Origin: a virus
Lineage: Duplodnaviria > Heunggongvirae > Uroviricota > Caudoviricetes
Virus record (IMG/VR): IMGVR_UViG_2923360383_000008
Direction: 5' to 3' (one strand)
DNA: 41,720 nucleotides
The notes beneath the pieces are model-generated. The model saw only the letters and a program-made list of their open reading frames with translations. It did not search any database and was not told the DNA's origin. Shown here piece by piece: positions 18,723 to 19,049 of the stretch (within the stretch, counting starts at the first letter, position 1; each line of letters starts with the position of its first letter). A program made the position numbers and the translations under genes.

Positions 18723-19049
18723 ATGAAAAGACGCCTTTTACTACTTTTTCTGTTATCTGTCCTGGCAGTGGGATGCTCGCAGCAAAAAGCTGATGAGCCC
18801 CGGCAATTAGTGACGGTGTATCCACGATATCCGGAATATGCTGCAGCAAATTATATCAAGGGGCTGGTTGAGGTTAAGTTCGATATTGGTGCTGATGGGA
18901 CTGTGACACGGATCGTTTTTCTCCGCTCAGAGCCTCATAATTTGTTTCGTGATGAAGTGGTGAAGGCCATGGCGAAATGGCGATTTGAAAAGAATCGCCC
19001 CTGTCAGGGAGTGAAGAGACAATTTATCTTTACGCCGTCACGTCCTTGA
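18723..19049 (+). CDS. Lipoprotein with TonB C-terminal-like domain
   Basis: Signal peptide plus lipobox (LAVGC); YPRYPEYAAANYIKGLVEVKFDIGADGTVTRIVFLRSEPHNLFRDEVVKAMAKWRFE follows the YP..A...EG.V.V.F.I...G.V....V..S......D.AA..A...WRF pattern of TonB C-terminal domains. Confidence 0.55.
   Translation: MKRRLLLLFLLSVLAVGCSQQKADEPRQLVTVYPRYPEYAAANYIKGLVEVKFDIGADGTVTRIVFLRSEPHNLFRDEVVKAMAKWRFEKNRPCQGVKRQFIFTPSRP

What the first reader, a model, noticed from the sequence alone, without database searches (positions are those of the whole stretch)
18723..19049. Prophage lipoprotein with a TonB C-terminal-like domain between the lysis cassette and cos
The 108-aa product has a lipoprotein signal (MKRRLLLLFLLSVLAVGC) followed by a domain fitting the TonB C-terminal pattern (YPRYPEYAAANYIKGLVEVKFDIGADGTVTRIVFLRSEPHNLFRDEVVKAMAKWRFE). 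A periplasm-facing TonB-C mimic could compete with TonB at the TonB box of outer-membrane receptors and so block phages or colicins that need TonB-dependent receptors, a superinfection-exclusion logic. It sits among known lysogenic-conversion morons (bor, porin) and is preceded by a roughly 400-nt intergenic region with nested inverted repeats.
Basis: partly seen in the sequence, partly recalled or inferred. Interest (0 to 1): 0.6.

Follow-up and report, generated by a model that had tools for sequence, protein, structure and literature searches.

The report
Phage lipoprotein carrying TonB's receptor-binding domain
A phage-21-type prophage of E. coli encodes a small outer-membrane lipoprotein that is just the receptor-docking end of the TonB energy transducer; it probably jams TonB-dependent import to protect the lysogen from phages and bacteriocins, but this has never been tested.

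Summary
The ORF at 18723-19049 (+) encodes a 108-aa protein with a lipoprotein signal peptide (Cys18, Ser at +2), a 9-residue tether and a complete TonB C-terminal domain. Support: Pfam TonB_C at 49 bits against a cutoff of 24.6, a gapless 41%-identity alignment to E. coli TonB 150-230, and an AF2 model within 0.9-1.0 Å of TonB as bound to FhuA and BtuB.

The gene is already catalogued. It is 100% identical to phage 21 CPT_21_73 ("TonB C-terminal domain protein") and to RefSeq WP_000830178.1, and it is the "TonB fragment" moron of LF82 prophage Perceval. About 30% of complete E. coli genomes carry it. I found no functional study.

New here:
- It belongs to an Enterobacterales-wide family of lipoprotein-anchored stand-alone TonB domains on prophages, plasmids and chromosomes.
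- It is under purifying selection (dN/dS about 0.1).
- Many non-E. coli members have a near-perfect Fur box. The E. coli phage copies do not.
- On one Klebsiella plasmid examined, it sits in a bacteriocin and exclusion gene cluster.
- The PHROG label "Rz-like spanin" is a positional misnomer.

The best mechanism is a TonB decoy at the outer membrane that competes for Ton boxes. This is inferred, with confidence about 0.45.

The parts
18723..19049 (+). CDS of the 108-aa lipoprotein with a stand-alone TonB C-terminal domain. It is identical to phage 21 CPT_21_73, RefSeq WP_000830178.1 and LF82_160.
18713..18716 (+). Shine-Dalgarno AGGA, 6 nt before the ATG.
   Evidence: The phage 21 record annotates a ribosome-binding site at the same place.
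18723..18776 (+). Lipoprotein signal peptide, residues 1-17, ending in the lipobox A-V-G-C. Cys18 is encoded at 18774-18776. Ser at +2 predicts sorting to the outer membrane.
   Evidence: Read directly from the sequence. Cys is invariant in the family. Residue +2 is S, T or A in all members.
18777..18803 (+). Short flexible tether, residues 19-27, between the lipidated Cys and the folded domain.
   Evidence: AF2 pLDDT is about 54 for residues 1-20, and no helix or strand is modelled between residues 14 and 27.
18804..19031 (+). TonB C-terminal domain, residues 28-103, equivalent to E. coli TonB 155-230. It includes the PxYP motif (P34, Y36, P37) and the final strand (94-103) that pairs with Ton boxes in TonB.
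18415..18600 (.). Conserved intergenic block containing the inverted repeats. It is more conserved between the two E. coli alleles than the CDS itself. Its left part (18415-18531) is shared with lambda and HK629, where a minus-strand promoter upstream of bor is annotated.
19141..19165 (+). A 12-bp hairpin 92 nt after the stop codon, followed by a T-rich stretch. It is a possible but weak transcript end for the moron.
   Evidence: The terminator scan did not call it.
17949..18242 (-). iss/bor lipoprotein gene, the divergently oriented neighbouring moron.
17676..17858 (+). Canonical proline-rich o-spanin Rz1, embedded in Rz. Its presence shows that the lysis cassette is complete without the TonB_C lipoprotein.
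19783..19824 (+). cosQ (19783-19789), and cosN from 19813 with the sequence GGGCGGCGACCT. The gene lies at the extreme right end of the phage 21 virion DNA.

Best explanation
The gene encodes a prophage moron product. It is a lipoprotein predicted to be anchored in the inner leaflet of the outer membrane. Its only folded part is a complete TonB C-terminal domain, held on a tether of about 9 residues directly under the barrels of TonB-dependent transporters.

The protein lacks TonB's membrane anchor and proline-rich spacer, so it cannot transmit energy. The proposed mechanism is that of a decoy. It would pair its last beta-strand with the Ton box that a ligand-loaded transporter exposes, or alternatively trap the scarce TonB C-terminal domain itself. 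Either way it would dampen TonB-dependent import.

The proposed benefit to the lysogen is lower sensitivity to phages, colicins, microcins and klebicins that need TonB. The cost would be some loss of siderophore and B12 uptake.

Shown here: domain identity, fold, lipobox, purifying selection and distribution. Taken from the literature: expression in a lysogen. Inferred: outer-membrane location, Ton-box binding, inhibition and the protective phenotype.
For: Identity and fold:
- TonB_C scores are well above the curated cutoffs.
- The alignment to TonB 150-230 is gapless at 41% identity. P161, Y163, P164, F180, G186, F202, W213 and F230 are kept, and Y215 becomes F.
- The AF2 model superposes on TonB from the BtuB complex (2gsk_B) at 1.0 Å and on TonB from the FhuA complex (2grx_C) at 0.9 Å.

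The architecture is conserved across the family: signal peptide, invariant Cys, S/T/A at +2, and a short tether.

Selection: dN/dS is 0.13 overall and 0.10 over the domain, measured between the two E. coli alleles with dS about 1.4.

Expression in a lysogen: the gene is 8-fold above prophage background in LF82, with 122-269 reads against 15-34 for the neighbouring terminase gene in the first four count columns.

Precedent: the title of Howard et al. 2001 states that the periplasmic domain of TonB made in vivo inhibits FecA and FhuA transport (cited in PMC6042079). The phage lipoproteins Llp and Cor already act on FhuA from the periplasmic side.

Link to iron and bacteriocin biology:
- 11 of 27 distinct family members have a 7-1-7 Fur box with at most 2 mismatches at a fixed position upstream, against about 1% of background windows.
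- On a Klebsiella IncF plasmid the homologue lies directly upstream of an Exc2-family lipoprotein. Next to these are a cloacin-immunity gene, a truncated cloacin-like toxin and a microcin-type export cluster.
Against: - No experiment on this protein was found.
- TonB residues implicated in Ton-box recognition are not kept: Q160 becomes Y, R166 becomes Y, and R158 becomes T.
- The E. coli phage alleles have no Fur box, and no sigma-70 promoter reached the scan threshold upstream on the + strand.
- A general brake on TonB would cost iron uptake. The Fur-regulated chromosomal relatives, for example the Serratia grimesii copy between ycgN and dsbB, are hard to explain as pure inhibitors.
- The phage's own receptor-binding tip is related to the lambda and 434 tips, so no self-exclusion logic applies.
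- Only one of the two Klebsiella plasmids examined shows the bacteriocin-cluster context.
- PADLOC has no matching defence family.
Confidence: 0.45

Rival explanations
1. A positive accessory factor for TonB-dependent uptake. The outer-membrane-anchored domain would pre-dock on transporters or on TonB and help, tune or add specificity to iron acquisition under iron limitation, rather than block it.
For: - Near-perfect Fur boxes sit upstream of many family members in Klebsiella, Raoultella, Serratia, Erwinia and Pantoea.
- Some members are chromosomal genes outside prophages.
- The LF82 prophage Perceval, which carries the identical gene, also carries the sitABCD iron/manganese importer.
- Specialised TonB-like C-terminal domains exist, such as FusB and HasB.
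Against: - A domain with no link to ExbBD cannot deliver energy.
- Occupying the Ton box would be expected to hinder TonB, as the title of Howard et al. 2001 reports for periplasmic TonB fragments.
- The E. coli phage alleles lack Fur boxes.
- Expression in LF82 did not change in macrophages (log2FC 0.26).
Confidence: 0.17
2. An envelope-structural lipoprotein. The TonB-like domain would bind peptidoglycan or another envelope protein and stabilise or remodel the outer membrane, contributing to serum or stress resistance like its neighbour Iss/Bor.
For: - It sits beside iss/bor and a porin moron.
Against: - The 9-residue tether is too short to reach the peptidoglycan layer from the outer-membrane leaflet. 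This is an inference from envelope geometry.
- The family conserves the PxYP motif and the strand that TonB uses for Ton boxes.
- Fur boxes and a bacteriocin-cluster context point to TonB biology.
Confidence: 0.1
3. A lysis or late-cycle accessory. It would be an outer-membrane spanin-like component, or a factor that uncouples TonB bridges or inactivates receptors late in infection.
For: - PHROG 1267 is labelled 'Rz-like spanin' and matches at E = 5e-43.
- In four different prophage types the gene lies just downstream of the lysis cassette.
- Its orientation means the Q-antiterminated late transcript reads through it.
Against: - Every cassette examined already has its own embedded proline-rich o-spanin: the window at 17676-17858, and L092, L128 and L203.
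- Here the gene is separated from Rz by the opposite-strand iss.
- Plasmid and chromosomal members have no lysis genes nearby.
- The gene is transcribed in uninduced lysogens.
Confidence: 0.05
4. A non-functional leftover. Older annotations call it a captured fragment of a bacterial tonB gene ('partial tonB-like membrane protein', 'TonB fragment') that drifts along with the phage.
For: Database names call it partial or a fragment.
Against: - dN/dS is about 0.1 at dS about 1.4.
- The ORF is intact at near-full coverage in 1611 genomes.
- A purpose-built lipoprotein signal peptide is conserved across genera.
- The gene has its own ribosome-binding site and is expressed.
Confidence: 0.03

Closest known systems
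TonB energy transducer (E. coli TonB, P02929), C-terminal domain
   Same: The domain is homologous and complete. It is 41% identical to residues 150-230 without gaps, has the same alpha-beta-beta-alpha-beta fold, and keeps the PxYP motif and aromatic core.
   Different: - It has no N-terminal transmembrane anchor for ExbB/ExbD and no proline-rich spacer.
- A cleavable lipoprotein signal replaces them.
- It falls far below the NCBIfam TonB equivalog cutoffs (69 bits against 315).
- It therefore cannot transduce energy.
Engineered periplasmic TonB fragments (Howard, Herrmann, Stratilo and Braun 2001, J Bacteriol 183:5885)
   Same: Both are a TonB periplasmic or C-terminal domain exported without its membrane anchor. 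By that paper's title, such fragments inhibit FecA and FhuA transport. This is the same logic proposed here.
   Different: - Those fragments were laboratory constructs, soluble in the periplasm and overproduced.
- This is a natural, lipid-anchored, phage-borne gene at native expression.
- The paper itself could not be read here. Only its citation was seen.
T5 Llp and the Cor proteins of phi80, N15 and HK022 (superinfection-exclusion lipoproteins)
   Same: All are small phage-encoded lipoproteins of the outer-membrane inner leaflet. Llp and Cor act on a TonB-dependent transporter from the periplasmic side.
   Different: - There is no sequence or family match to Llp or Cor.
- Llp and Cor are specific to FhuA, the producing phage's own receptor, and Llp acts allosterically on the plug.
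- This protein would target the generic Ton box or TonB.
- Its phage has no evident TonB-dependent receptor.
Rz1-type o-spanins (the label carried by PHROG 1267)
   Same: Both are outer-membrane lipoproteins encoded next to phage lysis genes.
   Different: - O-spanins are short, proline-rich and unstructured, and they pair with an i-spanin.
- This protein is a globular TonB_C domain.
- Every cassette examined has a separate genuine o-spanin.
Bor/Iss and other lambdoid morons in the lysis-to-cos gap
   Same: It occupies the same moron hotspot, is also a lipoprotein, and is also transcribed in the lysogen.
   Different: - The fold is unrelated.
- Bor is strongly induced in macrophages (log2FC 7.1) whereas this gene is not (0.26).

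Membership tests
TonB_C domain (Pfam PF03544 / TIGR01352) | Profile score above the curated threshold | tested here: met
   PF03544 scores 49.2 bits against 24.6. TIGR01352 scores 47.4 against 27.1.
TonB_C domain (Pfam PF03544 / TIGR01352) | Alpha-beta-beta-alpha-beta fold, with a C-terminal strand available for beta-augmentation | tested here: met
   AF2 pLDDT is above 95 over residues 30-105. The elements are H38-42, E47-55, E61-70, H76-83 and E94-103. The rmsd to 2grx_C and 2gsk_B is 0.9-1.0 Å.
TonB_C domain (Pfam PF03544 / TIGR01352) | Conserved YP motif and aromatic core (TonB Y163, P164, F180, F202, W213, Y215, F230) | tested here: met
   All are identical except Y215, which becomes F. 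They are invariant or nearly invariant in the family alignment.
Functional TonB energy transducer (NCBIfam PRK10819 equivalogs) | N-terminal uncleaved transmembrane anchor that couples to ExbB/ExbD | tested here: not met
   Residues 1-18 are a lipoprotein signal peptide ending in a lipobox. There is no homology to the TonB N-terminus.
Functional TonB energy transducer (NCBIfam PRK10819 equivalogs) | Proline-rich periplasm-spanning spacer, and a full-length score above the equivalog cutoff | tested here: not met
   The protein is 108 aa with a 9-residue linker. The best equivalog score is 69 bits against a cutoff of 315.
Bacterial outer-membrane lipoprotein | Signal peptide with a lipobox and invariant Cys, and no Asp at +2 (the Lol-avoidance signal) | tested here: met
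   The lipobox is A-V-G-C followed by S. Cys is invariant in the 14-member family alignment, and +2 is S, T or A throughout.
Bacterial outer-membrane lipoprotein | Actual lipidation and outer-membrane localisation | not testable with these tools
   This needs globomycin or palmitate labelling and membrane fractionation.
o-spanin (Rz1-like; PHROG 1267 label) | A short proline-rich lipoprotein that is the only outer-membrane partner of the i-spanin in the lysis cassette | tested here: not met
   A genuine Rz1 lies at 17676-17858. Embedded o-spanins are also present in L092, L128 and L203. This protein is globular, and the opposite-strand iss separates it from Rz.
Llp/Cor superinfection-exclusion lipoproteins | Sequence or family homology to Llp or Cor | tested here: not met
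   The Pfam, NCBIfam, PHROG and PADLOC scans list no Llp or Cor family.
Llp/Cor superinfection-exclusion lipoproteins | Blocks infection through a TonB-dependent receptor | not testable with these tools
   This needs plating assays with T1, phi80, T5 and H8 on expressing strains.
Phage moron (autonomously expressed lysogenic-conversion gene) | Transcribed in the repressed prophage | tested here: met
   From LF82 RNA-seq in the literature, not computed here: 8-fold above prophage background.
Phage moron (autonomously expressed lysogenic-conversion gene) | Own promoter and terminator flanking the gene | tested here: inconclusive
   No + strand sigma-70 match reaches the scan threshold upstream. 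A GATAAT hexamer at 18645-18650 is conserved between the alleles. A hairpin lies at 19141-19165 downstream.

The most novel reading that the evidence does not exclude
Lipoprotein-anchored stand-alone TonB C-terminal domains may form a widespread, unrecognised class of natural TonB antagonists. They would be carried by phages, plasmids and chromosomes of Enterobacterales, and in many lineages switched on by iron starvation through Fur. By occupying Ton boxes or trapping TonB at the outer membrane, they would give broad protection against every TonB-dependent phage, colicin, microcin and klebicin at once. That would be a generic gate lock, unlike the receptor-specific Llp and Cor proteins.
Probability: 0.35. 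Interest if true: 0.75.

Novelty: new variant of a known kind. Interest (0 to 1): 0.55.

Why it matters
TonB-dependent transporters are the entry gates for many phages, colicins, microcins and siderophore-conjugated antibiotics. If this protein is a natural, mobile inhibitor of TonB coupling, three things follow.

- It would be a new, receptor-independent form of lysogenic conversion and exclusion.
- It could help explain strain-to-strain differences in sensitivity to phages, bacteriocins and "Trojan horse" antibiotics. The gene is in about 30% of complete E. coli genomes, including Nissle 1917, UTI89, LF82 and O157 Stx-phage lysogens.
- It would offer a ready-made protein tool, and a template for TonB-directed inhibitors.

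The Fur boxes in relatives raise a question that can be tested directly: why would cells induce a TonB look-alike exactly when they need TonB most?

If the protein has no such effect, it remains an ordinary, already annotated moron of unknown function.

Tried and rejected
Spanin reading (PHROG 1267). Rejected, because every lysis cassette examined has its own embedded o-spanin.

Pseudogene or fragment reading. Rejected on dN/dS of about 0.1 and on conservation of the signal peptide.

Fur regulation of the E. coli copy. No Fur box was found upstream. The best match to the 15-nt 7-1-7 Fur motif has 6 mismatches, which is the background mode. The only Fur-like 19-mers nearby (19758 and 19764) lie next to cosQ and are probably chance AT-rich matches.

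Structured RNA in the intergenic region.
- Rfam gave nothing meaningful.
- Folding z-scores were only -2.3 to -2.7 on both strands.
- The conserved core matches the lambda/HK629 region where a minus-strand promoter upstream of bor is annotated.

Self-exclusion through the phage's own receptor. The J C-terminus is the phage 21 type, 57% identical to lambda J and 56% to 434 J. There is no evidence that the receptor is TonB-dependent.

Defence-system libraries. PADLOC matched nothing for this protein, and among five neighbouring small ORFs gave only one sub-threshold hit (E = 0.042) to a family of unknown function.

Literature. Searches on accession numbers and on TonB with prophage terms found only the LF82 moron table. 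Howard et al. 2001 (PMC99666) is not held in the library.

Single origin of the family. An NJ tree groups the lipoproteins apart from enterobacterial TonB. Bootstrap support is low, 14% for all lipoproteins and 28% for the core group, so this is unproven.

Other limits. The first genome-contig scan with the broad alignment failed for lack of a conserved stretch. Docking to a Ton-box peptide could not be run, because the structure tool only accepts sequences from the window or from homologue searches.

Full report
**1. The observation**

The window carries an ORF at 18723-19049 (+). An AGGA ribosome-binding site sits at 18713-16.

The 108-aa product begins MKRRLLLLFLLSVLAVGC|SQQ. This has a basic n-region, a hydrophobic core, the lipobox A-V-G-C, and Ser at +2.

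The remainder is a TonB C-terminal domain:
- Pfam PF03544 gives E = 7.3e-13 and 49.2 bits, against a gathering score of 24.6.
- TIGR01352 gives 47.4 bits against 27.1. The best NCBIfam hits are the enterobacterial TonB equivalogs, matched only over their last 85 or so residues and far below their full-length cutoffs.
- Against PDB sequences, the protein aligns without a single gap to E. coli TonB, with E about 1e-14.
- BLASTP gives 41% identity between residues 23-103 and TonB 150-230.
- With the offset of 127, TonB P161, Y163, P164, F180, G186, F202, W213 and F230 are identical, and Y215 becomes F.
- TonB Q160, R166 and R158 are replaced by Y33, Y39 and T31.

An AlphaFold2 model built on a 14-sequence family alignment has mean pLDDT 86.7, and above 95 over residues 30-105. 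It shows the alpha-beta-beta-alpha-beta order. Foldseek places it 1.0 Å from TonB in the BtuB complex (2gsk_B) and 0.9 Å from TonB in the FhuA complex (2grx_C).

**2. The setting**

The stretch 17949-19812 is 100% identical (1864 of 1864 bases) to the right end of classical phage 21, OL657228.

The gene order is:
- an ompC/nmpC-like porin gene (-)
- the S21 pinholin
- the SAR endolysin
- Rz, with Rz1 embedded
- iss/bor (-)
- this gene
- cosQ at 19783-19789, and cosN from 19813
- Nu1 and A

This order rests. In Nissle 1917 the same prophage sits next to icd.

The gap between iss and this gene is 480 nt. Its inverted repeats are real. Its conserved core, 18415-18531, also occurs in lambda and HK629. 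In HK629 a minus-strand promoter is annotated there, upstream of bor. That part of the "nested repeats" region therefore belongs at least partly to iss/bor.

Rfam finds nothing in the region. Folding z-scores are modest on both strands.

**3. The gene is already catalogued but unstudied**

The identical protein is annotated under several names:
- "TonB C-terminal domain protein" in phage 21
- "TonB family protein", WP_000830178.1, in RefSeq
- [quoted passage not shown] in the record for phage ev017
- "TonB fragment" in the LF82 prophage Perceval

The gene is present in 1616 of 5426 complete E. coli genomes. Of these, 1201 carry an allele at 99% identity or more, and 392 carry an allele of about 73% nucleotide identity. 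In the phage collection the 72%-protein-identity allele is carried by Stx1a-converting phages, among others.

In LF82, RNA-seq lists it as a moron expressed 8-fold above prophage background (PMC9928086). The supplement shows 122-269 reads in the first four count columns, against 15-34 for the adjacent terminase gene. Expression did not change in macrophages (log2FC 0.26), whereas bor rose by 7.1.

I found no functional study.

**4. It is one member of a wider family**

An exhaustive HMMER search returned many proteins of 105-130 aa that match from the signal peptide to the C-terminus at 35-46% identity.

Most have a lipobox and some have a type I signal peptide. In a 14-member alignment the Cys is invariant, and the +2 residue is always S, T or A.

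Members occur in Klebsiella, Raoultella, Salmonella, Serratia, Erwinia, Pantoea and Pseudescherichia.

The prophage copies sit immediately downstream of four different lysis-cassette types. Each of those cassettes has its own embedded proline-rich o-spanin. The PHROG 1267 label "Rz-like spanin" is therefore a positional mis-annotation.

Other members are chromosomal, for example in Serratia grimesii between ycgN and dsbB.

Others are on plasmids. On a Klebsiella IncF plasmid the gene lies 49 nt upstream of an Exc2-family lipoprotein (NF033828). Beside these are a cloacin-immunity gene, a truncated cloacin-like rRNase domain (recognised by eye from the ORF sequence; no library family matched it), and a microcin-type exporter. 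A second Klebsiella plasmid that I examined lacks that context.

An NJ tree groups the lipoproteins apart from enterobacterial TonB. Bootstrap support is only 14-28%, so a single origin is unproven.

**5. Selection and regulation**

Between the two E. coli alleles, dN/dS is 0.13 overall and 0.10 over the domain, at dS about 1.4. The protein is under purifying selection and is not a decaying fragment.

Many non-E. coli members carry a near-perfect Fur box shortly upstream of the start codon. L089 and L128 have TGATAATTATTATCA, which matches the 7-1-7 motif with no mismatches. Overall, 11 of 27 distinct proteins have at most 2 mismatches at a fixed position, against about 1% of background windows.

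The E. coli lambdoid alleles have no such site. Their best match has 6 mismatches, which equals the background mode. No + strand sigma-70 consensus reaches the scan threshold upstream. A GATAAT hexamer at 18645-18650 is conserved between the alleles.

Because the gene is co-oriented with the late operon, between Rz and cos, late transcription must also read through it. This is an inference.

**6. Mechanism**

What is shown:
- a complete TonB docking domain
- the absence of the membrane anchor and proline-rich spacer needed to couple to ExbBD
- a lipoprotein signal with outer-membrane sorting features
- a tether of only about 9 residues
- transcription in a lysogen

What is inferred: the domain is pinned to the periplasmic face of the outer membrane, exactly where ligand-loaded transporters release their Ton box. 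There it can bind that box by beta-augmentation, or heterodimerise with TonB's own domain, without delivering energy. That makes it a competitive decoy.

Two precedents support this:
- Periplasmic TonB fragments made in vivo inhibit FecA and FhuA transport. This rests on the title of Howard et al. 2001, as cited in PMC6042079.
- The phage lipoproteins Llp and Cor already act on FhuA from inside.

The expected benefit is reduced sensitivity to TonB-dependent phages and bacteriocins. The Fur boxes would time this to iron starvation, when those receptors are known to be most abundant (background knowledge). TonB-dependent bacteriocins are common in Klebsiella.

The caveats are:
- residues linked to Ton-box recognition are not conserved
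- there is an obvious iron-uptake cost
- Fur-regulated chromosomal members could equally indicate a positive or modulatory role in uptake
- the phage's own J tip is of the lambda/434-related type, so this is not self-exclusion

I put the decoy mechanism at about 0.45. The rivals are a positive accessory factor (0.17), an envelope-structural role (0.10), a late or lysis accessory (0.05) and a non-functional fragment (0.03).

**7. Comparison and verdict**

The protein is a member of the TonB_C domain family. It is not a TonB transducer, an o-spanin, or an Llp/Cor homologue.

It most likely works like the engineered dominant-negative TonB fragments, and its ecological logic resembles that of Llp and Cor.

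As an annotation it is known. As an architecture with a proposed role it is a new variant of a known kind: a natural, lipid-anchored, mobile, sometimes Fur-controlled stand-alone TonB domain. Interest is moderate to high (0.55), because the idea is cheap to test and the gene is very common in clinically and probiotically important E. coli.

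Noticed in passing
L089 about 5950-5990; L128, L084, L085, L087, L090, L092, L095, L123 and L203, all just upstream of the homologous gene: Near-perfect Fur boxes (TGATAATnATTATCA) precede the lipoprotein-TonB_C genes of Klebsiella, Raoultella, Salmonella, Serratia, Erwinia and Pantoea. They are absent upstream of the E. coli phage alleles.
   Followed up: yes
L202 6956-8720 (Klebsiella pneumoniae IncF plasmid NZ_CP073792.1): The TonB_C lipoprotein gene is followed 49 nt later by an Exc2-family lipoprotein gene. 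Next come a cloacin-immunity gene, an IS-truncated cloacin-like rRNase domain, and a double-glycine peptide with a HlyD/ABC exporter. Together these look like a bacteriocin protection and production island.
   Followed up: partly
window 18415-18600: This intergenic block is about 90% conserved between prophages whose TonB_C alleles are only about 73% identical. Its left 117 nt also occur in lambda, HK629 and many Stx phages, where a minus-strand promoter upstream of bor is annotated. The right part (18521-18565) is a long hairpin of unknown role.
   Followed up: partly
window 19758-19782: Two overlapping Fur-box-like 19-mers, each with 5 mismatches, lie immediately left of cosQ. They are probably AT-rich chance matches or part of the cos architecture.
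   Followed up: no
window 15076-16218 (-): An ompC/nmpC-type porin gene lies between the Q antiterminator and the lysis cassette. It is listed as an expressed moron in LF82 Perceval.
   Followed up: no
window 6163-6744 (+) and 7470-8776 (-): A sieB-type superinfection-exclusion gene lies in the immunity region. Next to the cI-like repressor is a pair comprising a DUF1828 gene and a hypothetical gene, which could be further prophage defence genes.
   Followed up: no
window 18568-18705, 19087-19209 and 19256-19438 (+); 19172-19733 (-): Small ORFs flank the gene. Three are annotated as hypothetical proteins in phage 21, and RefSeq keeps only the 60-aa one. They had no significant PADLOC match; one weak hit (E = 0.042) fell to the 19413-19733 ORF. 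The upstream ORF lies in a stretch poorly conserved between the alleles.
   Followed up: partly
H1-H4 (for example NZ_CP099721.1): In some APEC-type strains an IS3-family element has inserted within the 1.7-kb segment between iss and cos that carries this gene.
   Followed up: no
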